Source of the DNA: a virus
Reading direction: 5' to 3' (one strand)
Virus genome (UHGV): UHGV-0214148
Length of the DNA: 64,000 nucleotides
Position 1 is the stretch's first letter; every line of letters begins with the position of its first letter. Made by a program: the position numbers and the translations under genes. Below the pieces are notes generated by a model. It did no database searches. It saw only the letters and a program-made list of their open reading frames with translations, and was not told where the DNA came from. Shown here in pieces: positions 10,909-26,099 of the stretch.

Positions 10909-13900
10909 ATGCCGAGAGAAGACGCGGCGCAGTTTAACGGTACGCTAAGCACAGCGACGTACCCTAACCGATTTAACGTGGTCATTCCGCCTGAAGGACC
11001 TTTTTATCGTATCGGATTAAAACTCACAGTAGCCGACGATACCGCGCCTAACGGACGTCGTACTCTGATTGAGGGGCTGGACTACTATTTAGGCTATTAC
11101 TTTAAAGAACTCGCCGAAGCTGAACAAGATCAGATTTATGGCGGGTTTATGTTGCTTACTGCAACAGAAATCGAATATGAGATTTTAGGGGTAGCACGGC
11201 AGTATCGTGTACCGCAATCTGAAATCGGGAAGTTCTTAGTTCGTACTGACCTGAAAGACCCACGTAACGTGGACTGGTCGGAGTTAATGGCGTACGCGCC
11301 GGTTATTCAACCAATCGACCCCCCTGCTAACTTAGAAGAAGCTATTCTGAGGGACGAGGTCGTTAAAGCGTTGAACGATATCCGCAAGAAAATCATTCAG
11401 CGTTCAACAGAGTTAGATGCGGCCTTCACCGAAGTCACTAACCTTATTTACGAGAACGGTAAAAAGATTTTCGATGAAGAACTATACCAACACCACCTTA
11501 ATCCTAACGCTCACCAGTATACGACCAATGACGTTGGGGCCCTTCCGGTTTTAGGACGTGCTGTTGACGCTACAAAAGCGTTTGGGTTGACAATTGACCA
11601 ACTGGCTACGCTGATGGGTTCGGCGGGCATTGAGCAATCAGACGTTGAACAGCTAATGGGTGAAGCCCTCGGTACCGTTTACGGTCGTTGGGGCACCACG
11701 AACGGTAACGAACTAACGTTTAAAACACCGGGTGGACACATCATCAGCATCCGTGGTGATAAGTGGTTAATTACCTCCCCGCAACCGTTAGTGATTAAAG
11801 CAGACCAAGACAACAACGAATCCGGTTTGGCGGTTGAGTTTAGTGCGGGACTGAATACGCTTTGGGTACACTCTGGGTCAGAACAGGATGTATTAGCACC
11901 GGTCTATAACTCTGTGTATCTCGTTACACCAGAAATGGTGAACATGTACCTGACGTCTGTAACGTTACTTGAAGCGAATGCCTATTTCAAACCGTCAGAC
12001 ACCGTAAAACCGTACGGTACAGCGAAGCAGTCTAACCCACTAACGTTGAACGCGAATATTCCCACAGCAACCGAGTCGGTTTATGGGGTGTTTTCGATTA
12101 CGAATATCGCAACCTCTGTAGCGCTAGGCACTGCTATTTCCCAAAAGGCTGTGACCGAGTTAAAAAACCGGTTGGACTTGTACGTTGACGACGACTACAC
12201 GGTTAACGGTAGAGGGTTTGTTAAGACAGGCGACAACATGGTGTTAACCTTAACGAAGGCCGATTTCGGTATCGATAAGATGAATAACACCACACCCATC
12301 GCTAAACCGGTAACAAAAGCATTAGCGAACGTGCTGAAAAATAAAAGTTTGAAGGTACACACGCACACTACCGCTGATTTGGATAATGTCCCGATTGGTA
12401 GCGCAACAGTGGACGGTATCTTACAGCTGTGGGATGCGATTGATACCACGAATGATAAAGCCGTCACATCACGCCAAGGGTGGCTGTTCGCAAAAGAGAT
12501 TAAGAAGGTCTCTGATAAACTGAATACCCTCTTGCCCGCATGGACAACGGCCGGGAGCAAATATACCAACAATTCGATATTGCCGATCTTGTCGATGGGT
12601 AATTACGAAGGTTATGGTAAAAACATGGATGCGCTCCAGATGGTTATAGGGGTACAACAAGGTAAGCTTTATGCTTTAATTAGCTCTAAATCCGCCCTTC
12701 CGGGAACCGAGGGTATTTATTACGCCGTTGCCGGGTTAAAAAACGACAAAAGTCTTGGTGAAATTTACAAAACAACGTTCCGTTATAAGCCGAAAGGGTT
12801 AGAGACGAATTATCCTGGGGTGGAACTAAAAGAAATTACCGTTACGGGTACCGAAGCATTTATAGCGAAAGGCAGCGACGATAATTACTATTTAGTTAAA
12901 CTGAACGGTTCAATGGATTACACCAAACATACCGATGTCAGGTTGGTAACTTTCTCAGAATTTGTTTCAGAAACAACATGGGAATTTGTGCCGAATATGT
13001 TCATGGATCGTGTGGTCATAGCCGATAACGGCGTCTATGTTTTGCGTACGATGCTAATGGCCGATCTGAAAAACAATAGTCTGGTGGACTACATTAAGGA
13101 TACTCCGCAACCTATGTTCCGTGTTGGGTTATTGCGACTTAATAAAACCGATCGGTTTGAACAGGTTGATTTAAGCTCTACACGAAAAATCGGTAAGTGT
13201 GCCGATTTGGTTGAACCTGGCGCGTTCGATGTAGATAATCCGAATACGAAGCGTCTTGCCTACTTCACTGCGGAAGGCAAAGCGTTGTGGACAGTGAATT
13301 TACAATTAACTAGAGGGGTGTCAAGATGGATAACGCCCGTTGTTAAGGACGGTAATCTGTTAACCGTCGGCGTGTCTGGCGTTTGTCTTGGTTTTTCTTC
13401 AACGAAAGGTACCACATTCGGGCCATGGAATGGTGCTTATCGTCTCGACCTATTAACCGGGGAGGTTGGGTTAGAGACAACTAACATCTTCCCAATCAAA
13501 ATCGATACTACAGGTTGCTACTTAAAAGACGGAACAAAAATAGAGCTGAAATGGAAATGGGCTACTCGAAGTTCTGGCTATATGGCCGACAATAGAATCT
13601 GTGTCGGTGATATGGTTTATTCTTGCTGCTGTTCGACAGAAAAACAACTTGCACCGTCTCTCCATTACCAGAAACTCCCAGAAGGAGTTAGTTATCTGGA
13701 CTATGTTAAGTTGAGTGCGGGGTATGAGGGGCAATCTACGTTTGAAAATCGGATAAACCCTGTGGTGGGTTCGGTGTGGAAACCGTCTATGACTCTACCA
13801 TTGTTCTTCCCAGGAACAAACAAAGTATGGCTTAAACATCAAAAAACGGCTTATTTCATTGAAGCCGAATATGATAAAGATACGACTTATGGTTATCCTG

Positions 13901-16095
13901 GATACGGCGGGTTTGGACCAACATCCCGCCGTGTTGAAAAAAAAGCGAACGAATACGGCGTATTGACAAATATACCGCTGGTTGTTACGCCAGACATACC
14001 GAAAGGTCTACTAGATGGGGCTTACTTTATCGGTGCTGAAAGTAAACCATGTAAAGTTGTTTACGGTACCACTACGGTGGCTAGTGATCGGTTGTCTATC
14101 GATGCGGCAGAATGGGCGAAGTTGACTAATATTGTTCAGTCCAGCCAGTTCTCTGGGGCTTCTAACGGCAACGCCTATGAGCGGATTAGCGTAGCTAAGA
14201 CCAAAAAGAACAACTACAGTTTGTCCTTTTGGGTGCTTGGTCAAACGATGTCTGGTGGTCCGCTTTGTATCGCGATAGTGAGTCTTATCTATAAAGACAC
14301 TGACGGGGTAAATAAGTTTGCTTTTTACTTCTTTCAGGTAAAACCGACTATAACCAACGGGGTCATAAGGTTCGTTAGTTCGGAAGCGAGAATGATGACG
14401 TTCAGGGAAAAAATGGCCAGTAACGCCATTAATCTCTCACCCACAGCTTTTAATGGTGAACTTAAACAACGCTCCGGTCAAGTTTTCCTTTATTCGCAAG
14501 ACGGACAAAAGTTCAGATTCTCAATACATAACCTGGTTGGCGGGAATCTTGTAGGATCAGAGATTTCTTTTGCTTTTGGGATAAACTTGACTAAAAAAGG
14601 AGAATGGTTTACCGGCGAAATTCATCGGGCGTGGGGCTATACGTATACGCTGAATAATACATCTGAAGTCTATATACCCGATCTCTCGGGCATCGCGCTA
14701 TTGACTTGTAACTCGGAAGATTTAAACGAGTTGTATCTCGGTGGCGAACAGTATAGAATCTCTGATTTGTTTAACAAAAAATATACTGTTATCGATAAGA
14801 TTATTATTGGCGGCGTACAAACACAGAGCGGTTGGAATTTCTATCTGACGGAGGAAACCGAGTTAAGTTTTGGAAATAAAAGATATACCGTTCCAAGATG
14901 GTCCGTTGATTTAAGCGATGAATTCCCGACTAATCACGCTAACCAGACATTCTACGTTTATGCTGAAGTGGTCGGTTCTACTGCCCAATACCGCATCGGT
15001 TTAGAGCAGTTAGCTGATACCTCGTCGAGACTGTTTGTTGGGACAGTAACCACTGATTCGAACCGTATTACGGATATCAGTATCGATAAAGTAAAACGGT
15101 TAGGTCGTGTAAAAGAGCTGGAAAATCATGCCTCGGTTGTTGATCAGCACGATGTGGCGCAGGCGTTCGACAGGAAAACTGGTCCACTATTAACAGTGGT
15201 TAATAAACCCGTTAAAGCCATTACAGCATCTGCGAGCAAGGGTGCTGGGTATGTCGATGGCCAGAAATGGAATACGTTGTCCGGGATTGCAACGCGGCCC
15301 AGGTTGCCGGTACAGGAAACCTATTCAGGTTATAAAAGTATCAGCAGGGTGGCGTATGAGAACTGCGCTGACCAGTTCTGGCAGAAAGCGGTTGCTGCGA
15401 ACGTTGCAGCGGCTACTGCTTCTGAGAACAAACAAGCAGCAACCGCGAACATGAAGTGGCTGGGCGCGTATACGAGACCGACTACCGGTGCGAGTGTGTG
15501 TCTGGTACTAAGTCTACGTGTTAAAGTACCTGGTAATCCCGGCACCGCTAATCGTAGACTGAAAATCAGGCTTGCGGCTCCGACAGGTATAACTGAAGTT
15601 CGTTACGGGTTAAATCAGTCTGGCGGTACGATGGCTGAACAGACAGTAACGTTGACTGCCAACAGTTATCTGGAAAAAGAGCACGCCGGATTTAAGCCAG
15701 CCGAAGAAGTTCGTGTTCATGCTACCTTTGTCATTCCAAAAAATGAATACGAGAGTTACCGTACGAAGTTCGGTGCGGTTCAGTTGATTGACGTTGAATC
15801 GAACACTGTCATTAAACAGACAGATATCGACACACCGTTTTTCGTGTACACCGCCACGGAGCAAGCGGCACAATCTGGTTTGGTGTATAAAGCGGTTAAG
15901 AGTCAGTTTCGTCAACTCCCGGCTCAACCTGTCGTCATTGTAACTGATGGACAGACAGGGACTACGCCACCGGTGAAAACCTCGTTTGCTGACGGGACAT
16001 TAACGGTCTACGTGGCAACCACGTACGACGCGGTTAACCCAGCACAAACACGCGATATCGACAAGCTCCAGTTCAATCTTATGTTTACATCTTAA
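10909..16095 (+). CDS. tail fibre protein (1728 aa)
   Basis: AGGAG SD; N-terminal PPEGPFY...GLDY motif; fibre motif GIDKMNNTTPIAKPVTKAL...KVHTH. Confidence 0.7.
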   Translation: MPREDAAQFNGTLSTATYPNRFNVVIPPEGPFYRIGLKLTVADDTAPNGRRTLIEGLDYYLGYYFKELAEAEQDQIYGGFMLLTATEIEYEILGVARQYRVPQSEIGKFLVRTDLKDPRNVDWSELMAYAPVIQPIDPPANLEEAILRDEVVKALNDIRKKIIQRSTELDAAFTEVTNLIYENGKKIFDEELYQHHLNPNAHQYTTNDVGALPVLGRAVDATKAFGLTIDQLATLMGSAGIEQSDVEQLMGEALGTVYGRWGTTNGNELTFKTPGGHIISIRGDKWLITSPQPLVIKADQDNNESGLAVEFSAGLNTLWVHSGSEQDVLAPVYNSVYLVTPEMVNMYLTSVTLLEANAYFKPSDTVKPYGTAKQSNPLTLNANIPTATESVYGVFSITNIATSVALGTAISQKAVTELKNRLDLYVDDDYTVNGRGFVKTGDNMVLTLTKADFGIDKMNNTTPIAKPVTKALANVLKNKSLKVHTHTTADLDNVPIGSATVDGILQLWDAIDTTNDKAVTSRQGWLFAKEIKKVSDKLNTLLPAWTTAGSKYTNNSILPILSMGNYEGYGKNMDALQMVIGVQQGKLYALISSKSALPGTEGIYYAVAGLKNDKSLGEIYKTTFRYKPKGLETNYPGVELKEITVTGTEAFIAKGSDDNYYLVKLNGSMDYTKHTDVRLVTFSEFVSETTWEFVPNMFMDRVVIADNGVYVLRTMLMADLKNNSLVDYIKDTPQPMFRVGLLRLNKTDRFEQVDLSSTRKIGKCADLVEPGAFDVDNPNTKRLAYFTAEGKALWTVNLQLTRGVSRWITPVVKDGNLLTVGVSGVCLGFSSTKGTTFGPWNGAYRLDLLTGEVGLETTNIFPIKIDTTGCYLKDGTKIELKWKWATRSSGYMADNRICVGDMVYSCCCSTEKQLAPSLHYQKLPEGVSYLDYVKLSAGYEGQSTFENRINPVVGSVWKPSMTLPLFFPGTNKVWLKHQKTAYFIEAEYDKDTTYGYPGYGGFGPTSRRVEKKANEYGVLTNIPLVVTPDIPKGLLDGAYFIGAESKPCKVVYGTTTVASDRLSIDAAEWAKLTNIVQSSQFSGASNGNAYERISVAKTKKNNYSLSFWVLGQTMSGGPLCIAIVSLIYKDTDGVNKFAFYFFQVKPTITNGVIRFVSSEARMMTFREKMASNAINLSPTAFNGELKQRSGQVFLYSQDGQKFRFSIHNLVGGNLVGSEISFAFGINLTKKGEWFTGEIHRAWGYTYTLNNTSEVYIPDLSGIALLTCNSEDLNELYLGGEQYRISDLFNKKYTVIDKIIIGGVQTQSGWNFYLTEETELSFGNKRYTVPRWSVDLSDEFPTNHANQTFYVYAEVVGSTAQYRIGLEQLADTSSRLFVGTVTTDSNRITDISIDKVKRLGRVKELENHASVVDQHDVAQAFDRKTGPLLTVVNKPVKAITASASKGAGYVDGQKWNTLSGIATRPRLPVQETYSGYKSISRVAYENCADQFWQKAVAANVAAATASENKQAATANMKWLGAYTRPTTGASVCLVLSLRVKVPGNPGTANRRLKIRLAAPTGITEVRYGLNQSGGTMAEQTVTLTANSYLEKEHAGFKPAEEVRVHATFVIPKNEYESYRTKFGAVQLIDVESNTVIKQTDIDTPFFVYTATEQAAQSGLVYKAVKSQFRQLPAQPVVIVTDGQTGTTPPVKTSFADGTLTVYVATTYDAVNPAQTRDIDKLQFNLMFTS

Positions 16096-16135
16096 CGCCA
16101 CGGGACAAGGACGTCTCGGATTAAGGAGAGTGGCC

Positions 16136-17335
16136 ATGGCCTCCATTGTATACCAATACCCTTTAGATTTAACGGGAAGCCTAACCTCTAACGCCGTGGA
16201 GCGTCAGGTTACGTTAGGTACAGGTAAAGTTAACCGTGCGTTTGCTTTTCCTGATGGACCGTTTTATGCTGATACGTTCCGCTTGCGGGTTGCTAACCGA
16301 CCCGATGCGACGTATGAGCGCGGAACGGACTATGAGTTGATTTTTGCACACCCGGCTTACGAGAAATTGACGAAGAACCGGGAAGTGGTAATGGCGGTTG
16401 TTGTAACGAACACCGCGATTCCGACCGATATCACGGTATCGGCGCAAGTAGTCGGGGGCCCGCAGTCGGCAAACGTGACTGCGATAGAACAGGCGATTGC
16501 TGAGTTGAATCTCGATAATCGAACTGTTGGCTTTAAAGACTTGCGAAATGTTCCTGATACATTTCCGTCGGCACCGACGTATAAAGACGTCGGCGATATT
16601 TACGGCTTCGAATATATCATTACAGTGCTCGCTGGCATTAAAGATGCGATAACGGCGGGCGATGCTGTACAGCTTGAGAACATCAAAGCGATTCTCGAAA
16701 GCCTGAAAAACGATTTCCTGGACGCACTGAACGCGCACATTAACGCCACGGGTAACGTCCACCATCTGGACATTCATCAGGTTAACGGGTTAACGGAAAC
16801 GGAGATCCGTGCACTGATTCGTGACGTACAGTCTGCCATCGATGCAACGATTGCCGATATCAATGCATTGAAGAAAGCGGACGAAGCGTTAGGAAAACGT
16901 ATTGATGCTGTTGTCAAATCTTTGGAAGCGTGGAACGACCAACTTAACGTCGTTGCACAAAACTACCAGAAAATGGCACTGGCAATGGCGAACCTAAACT
17001 CGTTAGTGTTACAGTTACAGAAAAATATCAACGATCTGAGCACCAAACTCAACCAAGCGATTCAACGTATTGCTGCGTTAGAACAGCGGGGTAATGAGTC
17101 CGATCAGAAAATTGATAAACTGCAACAAAACCTGGATGCGCTTAAACAGCAGGTTAATAATAACACGAACGCAATCAGTCAGGCGAACCAGAACCTGCAA
17201 AACCATATTGCGGCAGATAACCCACACACAGGCTATCTCCACAAGAAATACGGTGGTGTGGTTCAGGCTCCAGTACACGTTAACGCTAACTTGACGTCCC
17301 GTGATGACGTTCAGGCAGAAGCGGGTACGAAATAA
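16136..17335 (+). CDS. short coiled-coil tail-fibre-like protein (399 aa)
   Basis: AAGGAG 7 nt upstream of ATG 16136 (track GTG 16130 is too close to the SD); N-terminal FPDGPFY...GTDY motif; long heptad-like Q/L/N-rich segment. Confidence 0.6.
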   Translation: MASIVYQYPLDLTGSLTSNAVERQVTLGTGKVNRAFAFPDGPFYADTFRLRVANRPDATYERGTDYELIFAHPAYEKLTKNREVVMAVVVTNTAIPTDITVSAQVVGGPQSANVTAIEQAIAELNLDNRTVGFKDLRNVPDTFPSAPTYKDVGDIYGFEYIITVLAGIKDAITAGDAVQLENIKAILESLKNDFLDALNAHINATGNVHHLDIHQVNGLTETEIRALIRDVQSAIDATIADINALKKADEALGKRIDAVVKSLEAWNDQLNVVAQNYQKMALAMANLNSLVLQLQKNINDLSTKLNQAIQRIAALEQRGNESDQKIDKLQQNLDALKQQVNNNTNAISQANQNLQNHIAADNPHTGYLHKKYGGVVQAPVHVNANLTSRDDVQAEAGTK

Positions 17336-17345
17336 CTTTATTACA

Positions 17346-17390
17346 GGAGGAACTATGCTTATGGGCGTAGTCCTCCATTCTTTTTTATTT
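17346..17390 (+). terminator. weak hairpin plus T-tract, possible attenuator
   Basis: GGAGGA...TCCTCC inverted repeat with a large loop followed by CTTTTTTATTTT. Confidence 0.3.
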
Positions 17391-17402
17391 TAAGGATACG
17401 TG

Positions 17403-17798
17403 ATGGCGATCAGTGTTAAAAATGTACGTGACCGAATCACCAACGTAGAGAACCAAATGGCAACTGGCCCACGTGTTGATCCGCAAGTTGCGTCGAAAGC
17501 ACATAATGCCGCCGACACTTTTTCGGGTTGGACGCCAAGTCGGTTAGACTGCGGGGGAAGTTGCAGCTGGACGTGCTCAAACGGCTGTACGCACGGCTGT
17601 ACGAGTTGTTCGGGCACCTGTACGTCAGTATGTGTAGGTAGCTGCTCCTCTGCGTGCGGTAACCAGTGTACTGGATGTAGTTCAACATGTTCCGGCGGCT
17701 GTTCAGGTTGCAGTGGGACCTGTGGGGGTGCTTGCTCGGGCCGTTGTTCTACGGGTTGTTCTGGTGCTTGCTCTGGTGGCTGTTCTGGCCCAACCTAA
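17403..17798 (+). CDS. Cys/Gly/Ser-rich precursor-like protein 1 (131 aa; about 50-aa leader plus 21-Cys core)
   Basis: AGGA 6 nt upstream of ATG 17403; leader ISVKNVRDRI...; core starts DCGGSCSWTCS and continues with Cys every 3-4 residues. Confidence 0.6.
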   Translation: MAISVKNVRDRITNVENQMATGPRVDPQVASKAHNAADTFSGWTPSRLDCGGSCSWTCSNGCTHGCTSCSGTCTSVCVGSCSSACGNQCTGCSSTCSGGCSGCSGTCGGACSGRCSTGCSGACSGGCSGPT

Positions 17799-17808
17799 GA
17801 GGTGAAAA

Positions 17809-18207
17809 ATGGCAATTGGATTACCTGCGCTACAAGCGCGGCTAAATAACATTGACAACACTGCATTGAAGAATACGGGTGCAGTGCAAAACTATATTCG
17901 TGGGAAAGCGACGAACAACGCAGACTTATTCGGTGGACAAGCTCGCAACCATTACGACTGTGGTGGGAGCTGTAGCTGGACCTGTTCGAGCTGTTCTGGT
18001 GGTTGTACAGGGAACGCATCAGGCGGCTGTGGTTCTTCGTGTTCTGCAAACTGTGTATCAGGTTGCAGCGCAGGCTGTAGCGGATGTTCGAATACATGTT
18101 CTGGTGGCTGCTCAGGAAGCTGTACGGGGAGTTGTTCTAACTCGTGTGTGGGAAACTGTTCTTCAGGCTGTTCGGGCAGTTGTTCTGGTGGGTGTTCTGG
18201 GAGGTAA
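17809..18207 (+). CDS. Cys/Gly/Ser-rich precursor-like protein 2 (132 aa; 20-Cys core)
   Basis: GAGGTG SD; same core start HYDCGGSCSWTCS; paralogue of the previous gene. Confidence 0.6.
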   Translation: MAIGLPALQARLNNIDNTALKNTGAVQNYIRGKATNNADLFGGQARNHYDCGGSCSWTCSSCSGGCTGNASGGCGSSCSANCVSGCSAGCSGCSNTCSGGCSGSCTGSCSNSCVGNCSSGCSGSCSGGCSGR

Positions 18208-18209
18208 TT

Positions 18210-18416
18210 GTGATTAGCCTTAAGAACCTTCGTGATCGATTAGTAACAGCGGAAGGGTATATTACGACCGCTAACGCAAACAACTATATTGCAAACCAGG
18301 GCACCGTGTCTTCAACCAATAACCTTGCCGGTTTACCTTTAAGCCATTATAACTGTAACGGCGGATGTAGCTGGTCGTGTAGCGGTAGCTGTAGTAAAGG
18401 TGCGGGGGGAAGGTAA
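18210..18416 (+). CDS. Cys-rich precursor-like protein 3 (68 aa, short core with 5 Cys)
   Basis: GTG 18210 with GGGAGG 5 nt upstream, directly after the previous stop; leader ISLKNLRDRL resembles the leader of peptide 1; core HYNCNGGCSWSCSGSCS. Confidence 0.5.
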   Translation: MISLKNLRDRLVTAEGYITTANANNYIANQGTVSSTNNLAGLPLSHYNCNGGCSWSCSGSCSKGAGGR

Positions 18417-18565
18417 CTAAGCCCTCCAGTGGTAGTATGTCTATTACGCAATAACCGAGTTAATCGTACGGGTTTACTGCTGAGTTTCAAGTTACCGGTA
18501 GGCAATGGCGCGGTGGGTTCTATACCCTGAATGTCCGTTTGACCGTGAAATAATTGGAGCAATCA

Positions 18566-19453
18566 ATGAAGAATGATTTACATTTAGCGTACAAAACAAT
18601 TTTCAATCATCCACTTCACATTTCTTCCCCTGATTCCGTACGTGCACACTTAGCAGATGAAGTTCGTCTGCTGACTCAGTTGCCGGGCGAATGGCCTAAA
18701 GTGCGCGGACGTTTCTTTACCGATCGTAAAAACTATCGTGTAGAAAATACGTTTAAGATTCGTGATCTGACGGCAGAAAGTGTGGTGGTCTTTACCGGTG
18801 ACTCCGAGTTGCGTGGTAAACTGGTTGCGGGTAAATATTTCTTTAGTGACGGGATTTTGAATAACTCCGTAGATATGGAATTGTTCTTTACCCCATTTGA
18901 AGAAATGGGCGCAAAACCGGTTGCCCGTCGTTGGTGGTCACCGGATTACTTAGGCTCGTTCCCGTATTTCTTTACCCTGGTAACACCAGAAACGAAGAAC
19001 TATTTCGATACGGAATCGTATATCGAAATTGAAGGGTACGAAGCGTTAGGGATTAATTGCTTAGCGGATTTAATGGCGTATAGCTATAAGTTCGTGTGGG
19101 ATCGTGAACGTTCCGTGTGGGTTGCCCTGACAGATGAACACGAAATCACAAAACGCATCCGTAAGCCTTGGATGCAGCATTTGATTCAAACACGTGTTGG
19201 CGAGCATCCGTCAACAGAAGCGGATCTGGCAAAACTCGTTAGTTTCTTAATGACGAAAGTCACGTTAACTAACGAAGAGAAAGCAGCAGTGTCGGCGGTG
19301 TTGGACCGTAACGTAACGTTGGCGGATTTAGAACGTTTAAATGTCCGTTATAAAGACCTTAACCGTATTTTGGAAGCGTATAACTCTCCATTCTTGTTAA
19401 CCCCTGGTGCTAACGTAGACGACGATCCTTTGTTCGCCATTGATTATATTTAA
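18566..19453 (+). CDS. hypothetical protein (295 aa) in the radical-SAM cassette
   Basis: GGAG SD upstream of ATG 18566; no recognisable motif; sits between the precursor-like genes and the radical-SAM genes. Confidence 0.55.
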   Translation: MKNDLHLAYKTIFNHPLHISSPDSVRAHLADEVRLLTQLPGEWPKVRGRFFTDRKNYRVENTFKIRDLTAESVVVFTGDSELRGKLVAGKYFFSDGILNNSVDMELFFTPFEEMGAKPVARRWWSPDYLGSFPYFFTLVTPETKNYFDTESYIEIEGYEALGINCLADLMAYSYKFVWDRERSVWVALTDEHEITKRIRKPWMQHLIQTRVGEHPSTEADLAKLVSFLMTKVTLTNEEKAAVSAVLDRNVTLADLERLNVRYKDLNRILEAYNSPFLLTPGANVDDDPLFAIDYI

Positions 19454-19474
19454 AAACGACCGGAGTCACCTGCA

Positions 19475-20398
19475 ATGACAACCAATGCAGAACCAAGGTT
19501 ATCGAATCGTTTATACGATAAACCCACCGTATTGTCCGTAGTCGCTACGTCCAAGTGCAACCTGGATTGTAGCTTCTGCGGTGGAGCCTATTACATGAAT
19601 CGTGAAGATTCTCCGCGAGAGTTTCAACGTGAGCGAATTTTGGAAGCGCTGGAAGCTAATCCAACCATTACCGAAATTCAGTGGACGGGTGGTGAGCCAT
19701 TACTGGCAACCCGTAAAATTGAGGCGTTTGTTGACGAATTAAAAGTGATTCGTCCAGAACTCAAACACCAGTTGTATACCAATGGCTTAAAGATGCGTAA
19801 ATCGCATCTCCCGTTGCTAAAACAGTTTGACAATGTCTACGTTAGCATCGATGGGTTTAAGTCGTCTGAGCGCCCGTTTATGCGCTTTATTGACGAAGGC
19901 TGTTACGAAGCACTGGAAACGATCTACGAGCTGGATAATGTCCAGACTTGGGGTGTCCTGACACGGGACCGTTTAGGGGACAAACGCTGGCACGAAGATA
20001 TTATTCAGCTGCACAGCGCGATTTACCATTACGGTTTCCGTGCAATGACGTTACTCTTAGATGCGAAAATGCCAAAACCTTTATCGCCCGACCACGTCAT
20101 GAACTTTATTTACGGCTACTATCAGGTTCAGGATAACATTGAACGACTGAATGTAGTAAATAGTCGTGAATGCGGCTTTACGGTAAGTAAAGTGTTTGAA
20201 GAAGGGTGTAACGTTTGCAGCGAAAGTCTTTGGATTAATGCAGACGGTGGTGAGCACCAACTCCAGAATGCACCTAACGTTCTGGAATCGGGATGTAACC
20301 AACTGGCCTTCTCTATCGGTGTAGAGGCGTACGAATATATTCGTCGCGTAGTGATGGCAGGGCGTAATAGAGGGGCGGCAAATGAGTCAAGTAAATGA
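19475..20398 (+). CDS. radical SAM enzyme (307 aa)
   Basis: N-terminal CNLDCSFC (CxxxCxxC) cluster and TGGEPLL SAM-binding motif; extra C-terminal cysteines (CNVC...C). Confidence 0.8.
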   Translation: MTTNAEPRLSNRLYDKPTVLSVVATSKCNLDCSFCGGAYYMNREDSPREFQRERILEALEANPTITEIQWTGGEPLLATRKIEAFVDELKVIRPELKHQLYTNGLKMRKSHLPLLKQFDNVYVSIDGFKSSERPFMRFIDEGCYEALETIYELDNVQTWGVLTRDRLGDKRWHEDIIQLHSAIYHYGFRAMTLLLDAKMPKPLSPDHVMNFIYGYYQVQDNIERLNVVNSRECGFTVSKVFEEGCNVCSESLWINADGGEHQLQNAPNVLESGCNQLAFSIGVEAYEYIRRVVMAGRNRGAANESSK

Positions 20399-21704
20399 AT
20401 TCCCTAAGCAGTTAACGTATCAGATCGTAACCAACCTTTCGTGTAACCTGGACTGCGAATATTGTTACGAACGTAAGTACCCGCGTAACAACAAAGCGGC
20501 GGATATTGTTGATTTCTTACACGCCTGTTTTGAACGTGATAAAAACGAACCGAATGTTGAAGTTATTATCGACATTATCGGTGGTGAGCCGTTCATGCAG
20601 CCTAAACTGCTGCTGGCTGCGTTTGAAACCGCTGAGCAGTTGTGTAAAGAACACAACCGACCGTTTATGTTTAGTATCTCCACGAACGGAACGCTGTTAG
20701 ATCGTCCGTTGAACCGTGAGATTGTAGAACGTTGGAAAGACAAACTTTCGGTTGGGGTTTCGATTGACGGCTTACCTGAGTCCCATGACCGTTATCGTAT
20801 CTTCACAACAACACGCCAGGGTTCTTACGAAGCCGCAGTACGTGGCTATAACTACTTAAAAGAGGTTGGCATTGCAGAGCTCGGCGTAAAAGCAACCTTT
20901 ACGTTAGAAACGCTGCCGTTCTATGCTGCGGGGATGAAGTCATTAATTGACATTACTGGCGGTGGGACAATTTCTGGAAACGTAACTTTCGAAGACGTTA
21001 TGCCACGTAGCATGGCGACGTCAATCGCTTTACAGATGATGGATGTGATAGATTACTGGGTTGAGAAAGGATTACACACCAACCCACGTAATATCTTATC
21101 GCACATCATTCCAGAAGGGTTGGATTTCGATACGATTTGGGAACCGAACTGGCGTGACCAGTTACTGTATAATGACACCGTACGGTTGAACCCAGAACGT
21201 TTACGTCCGTTCTGTGGGACGTTAACGCACATGACGTGCTTAGGGTTTGACCGTAAGATCTTTGGCTGTAACCGCTTTATGTCAACGGTAACGTCGCGTT
21301 CTGCGGTGTTTGAGTTGGTAGGTCGGGAATTCGTCAGTCTGGACAACGGTAAATTGTTAGAAGAGATTCAAACGCAATATACCAACTACCCAGAGACCTG
21401 TTTAGGTTGTCCGATGAAACACGCTTGTGGTAGCTGCGCGGCTGCTTCTTACGAGAACGGGGAAGGAACGTTAGAAGACCGTAAAGCGTATCACGCTGAA
21501 CGACGTCAGTGCGGCTGGACGACAGCGAAACTGATGGTGGCGGAATACTGGAAACAGAAGATGGGTACGACGTCAGCAAAAGCGTTCCATGACACGAGCA
21601 TGTGTTATTGCCCACGCTGTGTTCGTGAACGTGCCCAAAAGGAAAAATTATTAAGAGAAGCCAAAGATGAAACCAATTCTGATCAACAATATTACGAAGC
21701 GTAG
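20382..21704 (+). CDS. radical SAM enzyme with SPASM-type C-terminal domain (440 aa)
   Basis: N-terminal CNLDCEYC and GGEPF motifs; C-terminal CLGCPMKHACGSC plus further Cys pairs; start overlaps the upstream gene by 17 nt. Confidence 0.8.
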   Translation: MSQVNEFPKQLTYQIVTNLSCNLDCEYCYERKYPRNNKAADIVDFLHACFERDKNEPNVEVIIDIIGGEPFMQPKLLLAAFETAEQLCKEHNRPFMFSISTNGTLLDRPLNREIVERWKDKLSVGVSIDGLPESHDRYRIFTTTRQGSYEAAVRGYNYLKEVGIAELGVKATFTLETLPFYAAGMKSLIDITGGGTISGNVTFEDVMPRSMATSIALQMMDVIDYWVEKGLHTNPRNILSHIIPEGLDFDTIWEPNWRDQLLYNDTVRLNPERLRPFCGTLTHMTCLGFDRKIFGCNRFMSTVTSRSAVFELVGREFVSLDNGKLLEEIQTQYTNYPETCLGCPMKHACGSCAAASYENGEGTLEDRKAYHAERRQCGWTTAKLMVAEYWKQKMGTTSAKAFHDTSMCYCPRCVRERAQKEKLLREAKDETNSDQQYYEA

Positions 21705-22239
21705 AATTCGACTTCTGGATAAGTTTCTGGAAAACAGTAAGCTATTCGGTTGTTATGTGGTGATTAACGGTGAAGATTTTACCGATGACGTAAAACGCTT
21801 ACTGATTCGTCACGGCGTGACTGTAATCATCCCAATGTACTGCACCGAACTTACTGACCTGTCGGTCGCGGAAATTGAAAAACGTAACCCAGGGTTTGAA
21901 GAACGGGTATTGGATTTCCCACGTCACAAAATTGCGTTTCTACGCCGCTCTTTAAGCGAACCCAGCGCAGAATCTATCACTGTGTTGGCATTGTCCTTCC
22001 CCGGCATTACTATCTTCGCAACACGTAACCCGAACTCACCGATTGATGGGTTTTACGATGAGCGGGAGAAATTTAATAGCGTGATTTTTCCTGAGCTAAC
22101 GCCAGAAGAATGCCAGGGTATCCGTATCGATTGGGAATCTGACTTCGACACAAGATTCCGTCATATCGATTTTGAACTGTTAATCGAATTAGGGTTGATT
22201 AAAGGAGACGATGAATGTCTGCTACTGGTGAAGGCTTAA
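21667..22239 (+). CDS. hypothetical protein (190 aa), translationally coupled to the radical-SAM genes
   Basis: ORF overlaps the upstream gene by 38 nt; no motif recognised. Confidence 0.5.
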   Translation: MKPILINNITKRRIRLLDKFLENSKLFGCYVVINGEDFTDDVKRLLIRHGVTVIIPMYCTELTDLSVAEIEKRNPGFEERVLDFPRHKIAFLRRSLSEPSAESITVLALSFPGITIFATRNPNSPIDGFYDEREKFNSVIFPELTPEECQGIRIDWESDFDTRFRHIDFELLIELGLIKGDDECLLLVKA

Positions 22240-22886
22240 CGAAAGAAGAAATCCGTCGCCGTTATTTTGCGCACGATTTACCGATCGACCGTCATGGTAA
22301 CTACATGGAGAAAATCGGTAGCGAAGATCACGGCCGTACAGGGTTTTGTGCGTTACTGCACTATAAGCTGATTGATGGGATGTCTGATCGCGAAGCATTG
22401 GAACAAATGCGTAACTACGACATGTCTGAAATCGAAGCACGGTTTACGCTACAGAAAGCGAAAGACTTTGTTAACGACACGTTGGGGATTGACCTGGAAG
22501 AAATTCGTGCAGGTTTACGTTCCACGGTGCGGTACATCTTTACCGATGTTCAGAAAATTCTAAGCGCTTTGGAATTCCGTTATCAGGATGCACGCTATGC
22601 TGAGATTCAGGTAGGTGATTTCACTTTCCAGGCAGATGAGAAGTCACAGGTAGCACTGAGTCGTTATATCCAGTCAGAAACTGCGCCAGCGTATTGGTTA
22701 ACGGCTAACAACACCCGTATCGAACCGTTTACGTTAGAACAGTGCAAGACGTTGCTGGCAGCAATCGTTGAGCGTGATCAAAGACTACACCACGCAATGT
22801 CTGAGCAGAAAAGAGAAGTCAGGGCTTGGGCTGAAGCACGTGATTACGATTCGATAAAAGCGTTTGCGTTAGAGCAAGGGCTGTAA
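22215..22886 (+). CDS. hypothetical protein (223 aa)
   Basis: AAAGGAG 7 nt upstream of ATG 22215; overlaps the previous gene by 25 nt; last gene before the bidirectional terminator. Confidence 0.55.
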   Translation: MSATGEGLTKEEIRRRYFAHDLPIDRHGNYMEKIGSEDHGRTGFCALLHYKLIDGMSDREALEQMRNYDMSEIEARFTLQKAKDFVNDTLGIDLEEIRAGLRSTVRYIFTDVQKILSALEFRYQDARYAEIQVGDFTFQADEKSQVALSRYIQSETAPAYWLTANNTRIEPFTLEQCKTLLAAIVERDQRLHHAMSEQKREVRAWAEARDYDSIKAFALEQGL

Positions 22887-22911
22887 TCGACAGCGAAAAA
22901 AAAAAACAGTA

Positions 22912-22951
22912 TACCTACCTCCCGTAATAGGAGGTAGGTATTTTTATTTTT
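22912..22951. terminator. bidirectional intrinsic terminator at the strand switch
   Basis: 11-bp stem TACCTACCTCC/GGAGGTAGGTA, A11 run upstream, T-rich run downstream. Confidence 0.7.
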
Positions 22952-22953
22952 TC

Positions 22954-23484
22954 TTAGGACGTAAAACCGTCCAGCTCACCGTTGGTGGTGGCCAGGTCAA
23001 TACGATTATCAACAACCTTCGGCGTAATTACGAAAGTTGCCATTACACCTGGCTTATAACGGAGGTTCTTTTCAGTAACGGTACACGTTACCGTACGCAG
23101 AGTGACGCTATCGTGTTCGTCTTTCTGGTCTTCGGTGGTGTACTCAACGTCACCAGGTGCGATAGAGTCGTCAGGTTTTACTTTATTGATGTAAAACTGT
23201 AATCGGTCGCGTAGTTCGTTTTCTCCAGTCCAGAGAGCCAAATCGTCCGTTACCTCAATGCGTCCGACAACGCCAGGTTCCAGACGATCGTAATGCAGTT
23301 CGATTGCGCCTTTAAAATTTTCAGACTCTGTACGTGCGGTCATGGTAACTTTGGTATTTTTATCGCCCTTTTCAAGAGCGACAGGTTGACCAAAAGTTAC
23401 CTCTTTATCAGTGACCTGATGCGGTAGCTCTGTGTTAGCAGCATTATAAAGCGCAACTAACATCATCTGGTTAGTAGCTGCCAT
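22954..23484 (-). CDS. hypothetical protein, paralogue family A (176 aa)
   Basis: Shares NFKG..E.HY.RL and TNGELDGFT blocks with 23552..24082. Confidence 0.6.
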   Translation of the reverse strand: MAATNQMMLVALYNAANTELPHQVTDKEVTFGQPVALEKGDKNTKVTMTARTESENFKGAIELHYDRLEPGVVGRIEVTDDLALWTGENELRDRLQFYINKVKPDDSIAPGDVEYTTEDQKDEHDSVTLRTVTCTVTEKNLRYKPGVMATFVITPKVVDNRIDLATTNGELDGFTS

Positions 23485-23551: not shown

Positions 23552-24082
23552 TTACTCTTTAGGCGCTGGTGCGGTGAAGCCATCCAGTTCACCTTCCAAA
23601 CCGTTCAGTGCTACTTTCTCAATAGCTGGAGGGGTAACTTTATACGTCGCAACAGTACCTGGCAGGAACTTCAAGTGGCCAGCCACAACCGTTACCACGT
23701 AAATGGTTTTGCCTTCTTCTTCACGAGAGATAGTTTGCAGGTCGTTTTCACCGAACTCGTCATCGGTGTACCCTTTCTCAGCCATGGCTGCGTTAACTTT
23801 CGCCAGGATTTTCGTCGGTGAATCGAAATCGGTAGTAGGTGCAGTTACTTCAACTTCACCAACGATGTCGCAGGAAAGACGAGTATAGTGGAATTCTTTC
23901 TCGCCTTTGAAGTTCTGGCTTTCTGCCTTGGCGGTCAGAGTAATTTTAGTGTTGCGGCCAGCTTCTCCGGTGAACTCAGCGACAGCACTAAAATTAACAT
24001 CATTTACAGTCAGCTTAGAAGCAGTTTGGTTGTTTTTAGCAATTACAATCTCGATAAGCTGCTGTTGAAAAGTTTTAGCCAT
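23552..24082 (-). CDS. hypothetical protein, paralogue family A (176 aa)
   Basis: Start moved to ATG 24082 (MAKTF...), which has a GAGGT SD and gives the same length as its paralogue; the track start is 24118. Confidence 0.55.
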   Translation of the reverse strand: MAKTFQQQLIEIVIAKNNQTASKLTVNDVNFSAVAEFTGEAGRNTKITLTAKAESQNFKGEKEFHYTRLSCDIVGEVEVTAPTTDFDSPTKILAKVNAAMAEKGYTDDEFGENDLQTISREEEGKTIYVVTVVAGHLKFLPGTVATYKVTPPAIEKVALNGLEGELDGFTAPAPKE

Positions 24083-24222
24083 TGTTTTTACCTCGTAAGT
24101 AGTATGGGTGGTTTGCATAGTATTGTTCGGATTATAGAAGTGTTGTTAATAGTTATGACAGACAGCAGTAAGGGTTGTCTGTAAAATTATTATTTTTTAA
24201 CTTTTTATAGAAGGGTGAAAAC

Positions 24223-24820: not shown

Positions 24821-25336
24821 TTAAATCTCGACTAAGGCGCTCCAATCGATTGGTTTTTGCTTAACAACCTTCACAGTACCTCGATTTGGTGACCAGAAAG
24901 TAATGTTAGGCTGGTTACGAACGTCGATGTGTAACCAACTGATGTCACATTCAATAAAGTGAATGAACGGAAACTCGTCAGGGTTAGCAGCGATATAGTC
25001 GTGGACCTGTTTTACGGTGCTATCCAGCAACGTTGCATCAATGGCGTTACCGAATTTGTGTTGACTTCCTGAATCGGCGTAAAGCTGCAACGCACGTTGT
25101 TTATAACTACCGCCCTTAGGCTTTTCTTGATTAATAAAGAAGTCTAAGGTTCTTAGTCCGCGTTGTTGTGCAGCGGTTGAGTTAATGACCATTCTACCGA
25201 AACGATTACGAATCTGCTGTAGCGAAATCATTAACAACGGATTCATAAACCGAATTGCAGAATCGCCGTATTTGGCAATATAAGACTGTGGTACTAACTC
25301 TTTGAGTTTAAAGTTACTCGGATTTGGATGAAACAT
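24821..25336 (-). CDS. L-alanyl-D-glutamate peptidase-type endolysin (peptidase M15/LAS family)
   Basis: SQHKFGNAIDA (H-x6-D) and WLHID zinc-ligand motifs, as in T5-type endolysins. Confidence 0.6.
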   Translation of the reverse strand: MFHPNPSNFKLKELVPQSYIAKYGDSAIRFMNPLLMISLQQIRNRFGRMVINSTAAQQRGLRTLDFFINQEKPKGGSYKQRALQLYADSGSQHKFGNAIDATLLDSTVKQVHDYIAANPDEFPFIHFIECDISWLHIDVRNQPNITFWSPNRGTVKVVKQKPIDWSALVEI

Positions 25337-25994: not shown

Positions 25995-26099
25995 TTATAG
26001 AAACCAGAAAAATTCGTATCCACGCTTTTCGTCTTTACGTTTCCGCCCAGACGTTAACGCTTTCCACAATAGTGCTAAGAGTTTAGCAAACCAGTTCAT
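25995..26099 (-). CDS. possible 34-aa membrane peptide (MNWFAKLLALLWKALTSGRKRKDEKRGYEFFWFL)
   Basis: ATG overlaps the stop of the muramidase gene (ATGA); hydrophobic N-terminus then a basic tail; too short for the ORF track. Confidence 0.3.
   Translation of the reverse strand: MNWFAKLLALLWKALTSGRKRKDEKRGYEFFWFL

What the first reader, a model, noticed from the sequence alone, without database searches (positions are those of the whole stretch)
19475..21704. Two different radical-SAM enzymes, translationally coupled
The first enzyme (307 aa) has the canonical N-terminal cluster plus a short Cys-containing C-terminus (a partial auxiliary cluster). The second (440 aa) has a full SPASM-like motif (C-x2-C-x5-C-x2-C plus further Cys pairs). 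Two non-identical maturases next to three precursors suggest two distinct modifications or a heterodimer. The start of the second lies inside the 3' end of the first, implying coupled expression.
Basis: partly seen in the sequence, partly recalled or inferred. Interest (0 to 1): 0.7.

Follow-up and report, generated by a model that had tools for sequence, protein, structure and literature searches.

The report
Phage tail-fibre cysteine-repeat maturation cassette
Two different radical-SAM enzymes in a giant Salmonella-type phage sit inside the tail-fibre operon, beside three small proteins made of Cys-x-x-x repeats, and probably modify those fibre-like proteins chemically, a kind of virion maturation I found no description of.

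Summary
ORF 19475-20398 (307 aa) and ORF 20382-21704 (440 aa) are two different radical-SAM enzymes whose genes overlap by 17 nt.

The long enzyme has a full eight-Cys SPASM region. Its closest relatives are PapB, CteB and the TIGR04115 "CXXX-repeat target" maturases. The short enzyme has a truncated, twitch-like C-terminus with three conserved Cys.

The window is a SPN3US-like jumbo phage. The genes lie in one + strand row: giant baseplate/fibre protein, fibre-like virion protein, three CXXX-repeat proteins, an unknown 295-aa accessory protein, the two enzymes, an unknown gene, a DUF4376 gene and a terminator.

The same four-part cassette (Cys-repeat protein, accessory, short rSAM, long rSAM) recurs in unrelated phage types. 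In several of them the repeat forms the C-terminal end of a bona fide tail fibre.

So the "precursors" are most likely tail-fibre-like structural proteins, not secreted peptides. Thioether cross-linking is inferred from homology only. Whether the enzymes form a heterodimer or make two separate modifications is unresolved.

Rating: a new variant of the bioinformatically defined CXXX-repeat system, with no experimental characterisation found.

The parts
10909..16095 (+). Giant baseplate/tail-fibre protein (1728 aa), homologue of SPN3US gp168. First gene of the co-oriented row.
   Evidence: ORF. Synteny with SPN3US_0168. gp168 is a tail protein similar to phiKZ gp131 (PMC5105663; PMC5694885).
16130..17335 (+). 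Fibre-like virion structural protein with a coiled coil (401 aa), homologue of SPN3US gp167.
   Evidence: phrog_2163 'virion structural protein', E 5e-103. gp167 was detected in SPN3US virions by mass spectrometry. A protein matching tail-fibre phrog_7037 (best hit) and, more weakly, phrog_2163 also directly precedes the CXXX protein in gut-phage locus L021.
17403..17798 (+). CXXX-repeat protein 1 (131 aa). Conserved 49-residue N-terminal part, then 21 Cys spaced 4 (or 3) residues apart.
   Evidence: phrog_6085, E 1.6e-40. Orthologues in SPN3US-like phages.
17809..18207 (+). CXXX-repeat protein 2 (132 aa, 20 Cys). The junction motif NADLFGGQARNHYDCGGSCSWTC is shared with fibre proteins of other phages.
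   Evidence: phrog_6085, E 1.4e-39. TIGR04114 19.4 bits, cutoff 20. N-terminal 50 aa conserved in 62 phage records.
18210..18416 (+). Short paralogue 3 (68 aa, GTG start, 4 Cys). Same N-terminal part and CxGGCSWSC junction, repeat region almost absent.
   Evidence: phrog_6085, E 3.9e-24. It starts with ATG in L016 and L012.
18566..19453 (+). Conserved accessory protein (295 aa from ATG 18566), function unknown, no Cys. Candidate substrate-recognition or chaperone subunit.
   Evidence: phrog_8030, E 1.9e-141. Homologous 250-aa proteins sit in the same position in L002 and L003. No Pfam, NCBIfam or PDB match. The SPN3US homologue gp165 is not in the virion list.
19475..20398 (+). Short radical-SAM enzyme (307 aa): rSAM cluster motif, intact SAM-binding motifs, and a truncated SPASM/twitch-like C-terminus with 3 conserved Cys.
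20382..21704 (+). Long radical-SAM/SPASM enzyme (440 aa) with 8 conserved SPASM-region Cys and an extra C-terminal CxCxxC. No N-terminal RRE domain.
   Evidence: AF2 model pLDDT 87.5. Foldseek: CteB E 1e-13, then anSME and ChlB.
21667..22239 (+). Unknown 190-aa protein whose start overlaps the end of the long rSAM gene by 38 nt.
   Evidence: phrog_7988, E 2e-55. Syntenic in SPN3US.
22215..22886 (+). DUF4376 protein (223 aa), last gene of the row. Weak tail-fibre PHROG hits.
   Evidence: PF14301, E 4.8e-11. phrog_8169 and weak phrog_1807. A DUF4376 gene also follows the rSAM pair in L087.
22911..22941 (.). Bidirectional terminator-like hairpin (12-13 bp stem, T-runs on both strands) that closes the + strand row.
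   Evidence: No terminator-like site was found between the fibre genes, the Cys-repeat genes and the enzymes.

Best explanation
This is a tail-fibre maturation cassette of a SPN3US-like jumbo phage.

Shown by sequence:
- Three small fibre-like proteins consist of a conserved ~49-residue N-terminal part followed by C-[S/T]-G-[S/G/T] repeats.
- They are encoded directly after a fibre-like virion protein.
- They are followed by a conserved accessory protein and two radical-SAM enzymes.
- All of these sit in one late, tail-gene transcription unit.

Inferred:
- The accessory protein presents the Cys-repeat region to the enzymes, since neither enzyme has its own peptide-recognition domain.
- The long SPASM enzyme abstracts hydrogen atoms with SAM-derived radicals and converts the repeat cysteines into carbon-sulfur (thioether-type) cross-links. 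This would turn the repeat into a rigid, protease-resistant rod or fibre tip.
- The short twitch-like enzyme, which keeps every SAM-binding motif, carries out a second radical step. That step could be a different linkage, a different substrate paralogue, or an inter-chain link.
- The modified proteins are then built into the baseplate/fibre apparatus, while the enzymes stay out of the virion.

The overlapping genes keep the two enzymes in fixed proportion. The chemistry (thioether) and the division of labour between the two enzymes rest on homology only.
For: Identity of the enzymes:
- Both pass Pfam Radical_SAM.
- The long one aligns over its full length to TIGR04115 (115 bits) and matches PapB (117 bits) over its N-terminal ~190 residues.
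- The family profile matches CteB at 132 bits and anSME at 69 bits.
- The folds match thioether-forming SPASM enzymes.
- The Cys sets and the GGE, TNG and SxD motifs are conserved in both families.

Substrates:
- CXXX spacing holds in 83% of inter-Cys steps.
- Protein 2 scores just under the TIGR04114 cutoff.
- 84 of 86 loci encoding a relative of the long enzyme carry a Cys-repeat ORF nearby.

Tail-fibre link:
- The operon context is tail and baseplate genes.
- SPN3US gp167 and gp168 are tail/virion proteins.
- The repeat is fused to the C-terminus of a Pfam Phage_tail_fib fibre in a Campylobacter P2-like prophage.
- It is likewise fused to fibres in GpJ-type siphophages and an SU10-like podophage, with the same junction motif.
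- Bona fide TIGR04115 systems lie between baseplate wedge and tail-fibre genes.

Cassette:
- The accessory, the short rSAM and the long rSAM are homologous across these phage types.
- The junction between the two rSAM genes is -41 to +13 nt in 14 loci.
- A second short-rSAM paralogue is inserted between two repeat genes in L016.

Enzymes not structural: SPN3US gp163-165 are absent from the 86-protein virion list.
Against: - No experiment shows any modification, and the Cys-repeat proteins have never been shown in a virion. They were missing from or misframed in the SPN3US annotation. They also contain almost no K/R within the repeat, so published tryptic mass spectrometry could not have seen them.
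- The long enzyme has a Cys (C286) where CteB has Ala. Its first auxiliary cluster may therefore be fully Cys-ligated as in anSME, rather than open for substrate-Cys binding as in CteB. This weakens the direct analogy to CteB-type thioether formation.
- All NCBIfam scores are far below the family cutoffs.
- The short rSAM is absent from one cassette (L089), and other loci have three rSAMs or two long-type rSAMs. The pair is therefore common but not obligatory.
- The accessory protein's role is pure inference, with no detectable homology.
Confidence: 0.65

Rival explanations
1. A classical RiPP cluster. The three small proteins are leader-core precursors that the two maturases modify. The products are then cleaved and released as a phage-encoded bacteriocin or signalling peptide, unrelated to the virion.
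For: The architecture (several small Cys-rich ORFs followed by rSAM/SPASM enzymes) looks like sactipeptide and ranthipeptide clusters. The three paralogues share a conserved ~49-residue N-terminal region that could act as a leader.
Against: The gene row has no protease or exporter. It sits within, and shares a terminator with, the tail genes. The repeat region is the C-terminal part of 258-600-aa fibre proteins in five other phage types. Bona fide TIGR04115 systems also sit in baseplate/fibre modules.
Confidence: 0.08
2. The cassette is as described, but the chemistry differs. The long enzyme acts like anSME and oxidises Cys (or Ser) side chains, for example to formylglycine, or it performs some other non-thioether radical reaction. 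The short enzyme could be a peptide epimerase like YydG/EpeE.
Against: The sequence is clearly closer to the thioether formers: the profile scores CteB at 132 bits against anSME at 69, and PapB and TIGR04115 are the top NCBIfam hits. No C/S-x-P-x-R sulfatase motif is visible in the substrates (read from the sequences printed; no pattern scan was run). EpeE ranks well below CteB, ChlB, TigE and SkfB for the short enzyme.
Confidence: 0.15
3. The two enzymes form an obligate heterodimer that makes a single modification. The short protein supplies an auxiliary cluster or substrate-binding surface rather than performing separate chemistry.
For: Conserved gene adjacency and overlap whichever gene comes first. 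The two co-occur in jumbo, P2-like and lambda-like phages. The HxsB/HxsC precedent is a long SPASM enzyme paired with a short rSAM, and both models are among the hits.
Against: The short enzyme keeps its own CxxxCxxC and all SAM-binding motifs as invariant positions, which argues that it cleaves SAM itself. One cassette works without it (L089), and others have three rSAMs or an extra short paralogue. That pattern fits modular, separate activities better.
Confidence: 0.2
4. The Cys repeats are simply a metal-binding or disulfide-rich structural module, and the radical-SAM enzymes act on something else. Candidates are another tail protein or a small molecule or cofactor.
For: Dense Cys arrays can bind metals. 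T4-type fibre tips use metal-binding repeats (my own knowledge, not tested here). No direct evidence links the enzymes to the repeats.
Against: Co-occurrence of a long-rSAM relative with a Cys-repeat ORF in 84 of 86 loci across very different phages. The short rSAM was duplicated next to a repeat gene in L016. The nearest characterised relatives all modify Cys-containing peptides.
Confidence: 0.07

Closest known systems
TIGR04115 / TIGR04114: 'radical SAM peptide maturase, CXXX-repeat target family' and its Cys-rich repeat target (NCBIfam; defined bioinformatically, and I found no experimental work on it)
   Same: The substrate type is the same: long runs of C-x-x-x repeats rich in S, T and G. 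The window's long enzyme aligns over the full model length. The window's repeat proteins and a tier-2 (bona fide TIGR04115-type) target fall in the same PHROG, phrog_6085. Bona fide members (L024 at 455 bits, L047 at 470 bits) also lie in phage baseplate/fibre modules.
   Different: The window enzyme scores 115 bits against a cutoff of 350 and is 24-26% identical, so it belongs to a sister family. The window system adds a second, short rSAM and a conserved accessory protein, which the single-enzyme TIGR04115 loci lack. Its targets are three small separate proteins rather than one 150-390-aa protein.
PapB (freyrasin) and CteB (SCIFF) ranthipeptide thioether synthases
   Same: They are the best characterised sequence and fold relatives of the long enzyme: PapB 117 bits, CteB profile 132 bits, Foldseek E 1e-13. 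They install thioethers from repeated Cys residues.
   Different: Scores are below the family cutoffs (340 and 425). The substrates lack PapA's C-x3-D motif. The window enzyme lacks CteB's N-terminal RRE domain, because its cluster motif starts at residue 21. It has a Cys where CteB has Ala in the first auxiliary-cluster region.
His-Xaa-Ser system HxsB/HxsC (paired long SPASM and short radical-SAM enzymes acting on a repeat peptide)
   Same: The architecture is the same: a ~450-aa SPASM enzyme, a ~290-aa rSAM and a short-period repeat substrate. HxsB is among the top hits of the long enzymes. HxsC is the top hit of the Deferribacter short enzyme.
   Different: Scores of 39-113 bits are far below the cutoffs of 268-370. 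The repeat is Cys-based rather than His-x-Ser. The context is a phage tail module. The Hxs chemistry is itself unknown, to my knowledge.
QhpD (quinohemoprotein amine dehydrogenase maturase)
   Same: It is a precedent for an rSAM/SPASM enzyme that cross-links Cys residues within a protein subunit that stays part of a larger assembly, rather than within a secreted peptide (my own knowledge). It is among the NCBIfam hits at 61 bits.
   Different: It is a distant relative (cutoff 453), it acts as a single enzyme, and it has no repeat substrate.
SkfB, MoaA and BtrN type 'twitch' radical-SAM enzymes
   Different: Sequence similarity is confined to the N-terminal core. All the family models score far below cutoff. 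Its best fold matches are the full SPASM enzymes CteB, ChlB and TigE.

Membership tests
Radical SAM superfamily (PF04055) | CxxxCxxC cluster motif and a Pfam score above the gathering cutoff | tested here: met
   Short enzyme: 53 bits. Long enzyme: 57 bits. Cutoff 29.5. The motifs C28/C32/C35 and C21/C25/C28 are invariant, as are the GGE and TNG motifs.
SPASM-domain radical SAM enzymes (long enzyme) | C-terminal 7-8 Cys set (C...C...GxxxxC, then Cx2Cx5Cx2-3C, then C) for two auxiliary [4Fe-4S] clusters | tested here: met
   C278, C286, C296, C340, C343, C349, C352 and C377 are conserved in 30 homologues. Fold and profile alignments to CteB and anSME run through this region. No Pfam family other than Radical_SAM and Fer4_12 was reported at E<=0.01. 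Cluster content itself was not tested.
SPASM/twitch (short enzyme) | C-terminal Cys ligands for at least one auxiliary cluster | tested here: inconclusive
TIGR04115 CXXX-repeat-target maturase | Score at or above the 350-bit equivalog cutoff | tested here: not met
   114.7 bits, aligned over residues 10-371 to model positions 3-345 of 359. Controls L024 and L047 score 455 and 470 bits.
TIGR04115 CXXX-repeat-target maturase | Encoded next to a protein with tandem CXXX repeats | tested here: met
   Three such ORFs lie 1-3 kb upstream in the same gene row. Protein 2 scores 19.4 bits on TIGR04114, cutoff 20.
PapB ranthipeptide maturase (NF047865) | Score at or above 340 bits, and a C-x3-D substrate motif | tested here: not met
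   116.8 bits. The repeat regions contain no Asp (composition).
Anaerobic sulfatase maturase (TIGR03942) | Score at or above 349 bits, and a C/S-x-P/A-x-R target motif | tested here: not met
   59 bits for the long enzyme and 29.5 bits for the short one. No such motif is visible in the three substrate sequences printed (read by eye; no pattern scan was run).
HxsB/HxsC paired maturases (TIGR03978/TIGR03977) | Scores at or above 370 and 268 bits, and a His-Xaa-Ser repeat target | tested here: not met
   75 and 39 bits. The targets are Cys repeats.
   Short enzyme: QueE 35.5 (cutoff 260), NrdG 34 (cutoff 131), MoaA 43.8 (cutoff 284). All these hits cover the N-terminal ~110 residues only.
RiPP biosynthetic cluster (classical sense) | Leader peptide recognised by an RRE domain, and a leader protease and/or exporter | tested here: not met
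   Neither enzyme has an N-terminal domain before the cluster motif. No protease or transporter family was found in any gene of the row. Leader cleavage itself cannot be tested here.
Phage tail-fibre module | Co-oriented with, and flanked by, tail or baseplate genes, with homologous repeats fused to recognised fibres | tested here: met
   (gp167-170 are tail/virion proteins). (PF12571 fibre ending in the repeat).. Presence of the repeat proteins in virions was not tested.

The most novel reading that the evidence does not exclude
Radical-SAM enzymes install covalent cross-links in cysteine-repeat segments of phage tail fibres or baseplate fibrils. That would be a previously unrecognised class of virion post-translational modification, found in jumbo, P2-like, lambda-like, podo- and gut phages. 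Because the enzymes are oxygen-labile, fibre maturation would depend on anaerobic host physiology, and so possibly would host range or infectivity. This would explain why these proteins were missed in aerobically prepared virions that had also been misannotated.
Probability: 0.35. Interest if true: 0.85.

Novelty: new variant of a known kind. Interest (0 to 1): 0.72.

Why it matters
Known radical-SAM/SPASM peptide maturases make secreted natural products or enzyme cofactors. Here the same enzyme type is hard-wired into the tail-fibre modules of many unrelated phages, and it acts on proteins that are, or are fused to, fibres.

If confirmed, it would matter in four ways:
- It adds a new chemistry to virion assembly.
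- It gives a function to the uncharacterised CXXX-repeat (TIGR04114/04115) systems.
- It identifies unannotated or misframed genes in the model jumbo phage SPN3US.
- It raises the testable idea that fibre maturation, and hence adsorption, depends on oxygen, which bears on phage therapy and gut phage ecology.

SPN3US already has an amber-mutant genetic system and published virion proteomes, so the question can be tested directly.

Tried and rejected
- **Literature.** Ten full-text searches combined SPN3US, radical SAM, tail fiber, thioether, CXXX repeat, TIGR04115, SPASM and RiPP. None found a paper describing this system. Hits that mentioned phage rSAMs concerned QueE-type or generic annotations. 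The library excludes most subscription journals, so absence is not proof.
- **Accessory protein.** Pfam, NCBIfam, a PDB profile search and PHROG annotation gave nothing informative. An exhaustive phmmer search found only 24 representatives. Its role stays inferred.
- **Regulation between precursors and enzymes.** The 137-nt spacer 18417-18553 folds no better than shuffles (z 0.97). No terminator was found there, and promoter-like sites are not above chance. I rejected the idea of an attenuator.
- **Auxiliary metabolic genes.** The QueE, NrdG, MoaA or viperin reading was rejected on profile scores.
- **Wrong-frame artefacts.** I considered that the Cys-rich ORFs might be artefacts of a GC-rich repeat. 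This was rejected. The Cys frame is conserved from Enterobacteria phages to Deferribacter and Campylobacter prophages, each ORF has its own Shine-Dalgarno sequence, and they match phrog_6085.
- **Cys geometry.** Distances between Cys residues in the AF2 models could not be measured, because coordinates are not exposed to the script machine.
- **Complex prediction.** Prediction of rSAM1:rSAM2:accessory:substrate complexes was not available.
Full report
**1. Observation**

The ORF list shows two + strand ORFs exactly as described.

- The first, 19475-20398 (307 aa), carries CNLDCSFC at residues 28-35.
- The second, 20382-21704 (440 aa), carries CNLDCEYC at residues 21-28.
- Further on, the second has C340-LG-C343-PMKHA-C349-GS-C352. 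It also has C278, C286, C296 and C377, and a terminal C411-Y-C413-PR-C416.
- The ATG at 20382 is the first possible start in its frame. An AGAGGGG motif lies 6 nt upstream. The ATG sits 17 nt inside the first gene, which ends with TGA at 20396-20398.
- Both proteins pass the Pfam Radical_SAM model, with E 6e-14 and 3.4e-15.
- They are only 25% identical, and only over the first 150 residues. They are different enzymes, not recent duplicates.
- Three Cys-rich ORFs lie upstream at 17403-17798, 17809-18207 and 18210-18416 (GTG start). Each has its own Shine-Dalgarno sequence.

**2. Where the window comes from**

- The region is about 72% identical in DNA to Salmonella phage SPN3US and its relatives, which are 240-kb jumbo phages of Salmonella, Escherichia, Erwinia, Proteus and Cronobacter.
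- SPN3US has the same gene order. There the two enzymes are annotated only as 'putative radical SAM superfamily protein 1/2'.
- All genes from 10909 to 22886 are on the + strand and tightly packed.
- No terminator-like site lies between the tail, Cys-repeat and enzyme genes. A strong bidirectional hairpin at 22911-22941 closes the row.
- The first gene (1728 aa) is the homologue of SPN3US gp168. That is a tail protein of the phiKZ gp131 baseplate-periphery/fibre family (PMC5105663; PMC5694885).
- The second gene (401 aa, phrog_2163) is the homologue of gp167, which was found in virions by mass spectrometry.
- The homologues of the two enzymes and of the gene before them (gp163-165) are absent from that virion list. 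This fits assembly enzymes.

**3. The enzymes**

*Long enzyme*

- Its best NCBIfam hits are PapB (117 bits) and TIGR04115, the 'CXXX-repeat target' maturase (115 bits, aligned over almost the whole model). Both are far below the cutoffs of 340 and 350.
- A profile of 30 homologues matches CteB at 132 bits and anSME at 69 bits.
- The AF2 model (pLDDT 87.5) matches CteB, anSME, ChlB, TigE and SuiB.
- Six SPASM-region cysteines are invariant and two more are at least 90% conserved.
- One of these, C286, aligns with an Ala in CteB. Both auxiliary clusters may therefore be fully Cys-ligated, as in anSME.

*Short enzyme*

- It has only weak, N-terminal-only hits to many families, including MoaA, QueE and NrdG, all far below cutoff.
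- It keeps the cluster motif and the GGE, TNG and SxD motifs as invariant positions.
- It has three conserved C-terminal cysteines.
- I read it as a catalytically competent enzyme with a truncated, twitch-like auxiliary site.

Neither enzyme has a domain in front of the cluster motif that could serve as a peptide-recognition element.

**4. The substrates**

- Proteins 1 and 2 (131 and 132 aa) have a conserved ~49-residue N-terminal part. It is followed by 21 and 20 cysteines spaced four residues apart, or occasionally three. The filler is almost only S, G and T.
- Protein 3 (68 aa) has the same N-terminal part and only four Cys.
- Over 26 such proteins the unit is C-[S/T]-G-[S/G/T].
- All three match phrog_6085.
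- Protein 2 scores 19.4 bits on the TIGR04114 Cxxx-target repeat model, whose cutoff is 20.
- The three paralogues are conserved across SPN3US-like phages. The N-terminal part is found in 62 phage records, annotated as 'hypothetical' or not annotated at all.
- In SPN3US RefSeq, the only CDS in this stretch (gp100) is in a different frame from the Cys-repeat ORF.

**5. The decisive comparative evidence**

More distant homologues of the long enzyme (33-40% identity) come from prophages of Deferribacter abyssi and Campylobacter pinnipediorum.

*Campylobacter pinnipediorum prophage (L003)*

- It is a P2-like element with baseplate J, Tail_P2_I and a Pfam Phage_tail_fib fibre.
- That 384-aa fibre ends in GCNGCSGSCSGSCSSGCTACSGCSGSCSG.
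- It is followed by a 250-aa protein, a long rSAM, a short rSAM and DUF1353.

*Deferribacter abyssi prophage (L002)*

- It is a GpJ-type siphophage.
- A 302-aa fibre with typical fibre repeats ends in about 110 residues of Cys repeats.
- The repeats are introduced by KATNADQLGGQAGSYYRCSDCSWTC. This is the same junction as NADLFGGQARNHYDCGGSCSWTC in the window.
- The fibre is followed by a 250-aa protein, a short rSAM and a long rSAM.

*Homology and further contexts*

- The 250-aa proteins are homologous to the window's 295-aa protein, and the short enzymes are homologous to each other.
- L086 is a second GpJ phage, with three rSAMs.
- L087 is a 170-kb contig that also has DUF4376 downstream.
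- L089 is an SU10-like podophage with a fibre, the accessory protein and a long rSAM, but no short rSAM.
- L017 has a 600-aa fibre-like protein.

*Survey numbers*

- In an IMG/VR survey, 84 of 86 loci encoding a relative of the long enzyme carry a Cys-repeat ORF nearby.
- The closer relatives have the four-part cassette.
- The more distant relatives are bona fide TIGR04115 members (455-470 bits). They have one enzyme and one large repeat protein.
- In the contexts examined (L021, L031, L047) these too lie between baseplate-wedge and tail-fibre genes.
- In L021 a fibre protein matching phrog_7037 and, more weakly, phrog_2163 directly precedes the repeat protein. The window has the same arrangement.

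**6. Coupling**

- In 14 loci the two rSAM genes are separated by -41 to +13 nt, whichever comes first. Tight co-expression is therefore a conserved feature and not an accident of this genome.
- In L016, the closest relative (its long enzyme is 93% identical), a second short-rSAM paralogue (62% identical) is inserted between repeat genes 1 and 2. This ties the short enzyme to the repeat proteins.

**7. Interpretation**

- *Shown:* the cassette has four parts, namely repeat protein(s), an accessory protein, a short rSAM and a long rSAM/SPASM. It belongs to phage tail-fibre modules. The repeat is a part of fibres or a small fibre-like protein.
- *Inferred from homology:* the long enzyme converts the repeat cysteines into thioether-type cross-links.
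- *Inferred:* the short enzyme performs a second radical step, and the accessory protein substitutes for the missing recognition domain.
- Both enzymes look catalytically intact, which favours two reactions. An obligate complex cannot be excluded.
- The alternative chemistries (anSME-like oxidation, epimerisation) and the secreted-RiPP reading are weighed in the rival explanations.

**8. Comparison with known systems and novelty**

- The nearest defined system is the CXXX-repeat target/maturase pair TIGR04114/TIGR04115. It is a bioinformatic family, and I found no experimental work or literature discussion of it.
- The window's long enzyme fails that model's cutoff. It belongs to a sister family that travels with a second enzyme and an accessory protein.
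- The paired long and short rSAM architecture resembles HxsB/HxsC.
- The link to tail fibres, the accessory protein and the second enzyme were not described in anything I could search.
- The genes themselves are already in databases as 'radical SAM protein' and 'hypothetical protein'.

I therefore rate this a new variant of a known kind. The interest is fairly high, because it would be a new type of virion modification and is directly testable in SPN3US.

Noticed in passing
L001 (SPN3US NC_027402) 4950-5979; record 143191-144220: SPN3US annotation problem. The only CDS annotated here (gp100 / SPN3US_0166, locus 5426-5761) is in a different frame from the conserved Cys-repeat ORF 5353-5757. The other two repeat ORFs (4950-5342 and 5773-5979) are not annotated at all. 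Published virion proteomics therefore could not have detected these proteins.
   Followed up: partly
L001 6911-7825 (SPN3US gp102 / SPN3US_0164): The annotated start of the short rSAM in SPN3US (locus 7031, 264 aa) lies downstream of the CxxxCxxC motif. The full ORF starts at 6911 (304 aa) and includes the cluster motif, as in the window.
   Followed up: partly
L016 4564-5484 (IMGVR_UViG_3300045988_078609, 225-kb contig): The closest relative of the window has an extra short radical-SAM paralogue, 62% identical to the window's, inserted between Cys-repeat genes 1 and 2. It also keeps the normal short+long pair.
   Followed up: partly
L031 10035-13266; L047 11565-15035; L021 11908-13146: In gut-phage contigs with bona fide TIGR04115 systems, a reverse transcriptase gene (phrog_1423) lies downstream of the CXXX/rSAM module. 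In L031 and L047 it directly follows a tail protein (phrog_5302). This looks like a diversity-generating retroelement targeting the adjacent fibre.
   Followed up: no
L083 4493-9735 and L076 2952-12257: Two viral contigs carry clusters of four to six radical-SAM-like ORFs. L083 pairs them with proteins built of C-x-C-x-C type repeats (for example CSCDCNYSCTCNCNYAC), and L076 has a small C-x-C repeat ORF plus very large Cys-rich proteins (up to 78 Cys). These appear to be a different, multi-enzyme Cys-repeat system.
   Followed up: no
L086 6087-6992: A GpJ-type siphophage cassette has a third radical-SAM gene (301 aa, CNMRCSYC, C-terminal CCRDCSLHTRC) between the short and long enzymes.
   Followed up: no
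window 22954-23484 (-) and 23552-24118 (-): Two adjacent paralogous DUF7941 proteins (176 and 188 aa) lie on the opposite strand, just beyond the bidirectional terminator. By position the first corresponds to SPN3US gp160, an abundant virion protein in the published mass-spectrometry tables.
   Followed up: partly
window 25314-25988 (-): A DUF1353 protein (224 aa). A DUF1353 gene also directly follows the rSAM pair in the Campylobacter prophage (L003 8068-8433). RefSeq calls the SPN3US gene at the corresponding position (gp109) a 'tail assembly chaperone'. A possible functional link to the cassette was not examined.
   Followed up: no
window 26096-26686 (-): Endolysin-type gene (Glyco_hydro_108 plus PG_binding_3) close to the tail module. 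This is ordinary.
   Followed up: no
window 21667-22239 (+): A 190-aa protein of unknown function (phrog_7988). Its start overlaps the end of the long rSAM gene by 38 nt, and its end overlaps the DUF4376 gene by 25 nt. It may be a further member of the cassette in jumbo phages.
   Followed up: no
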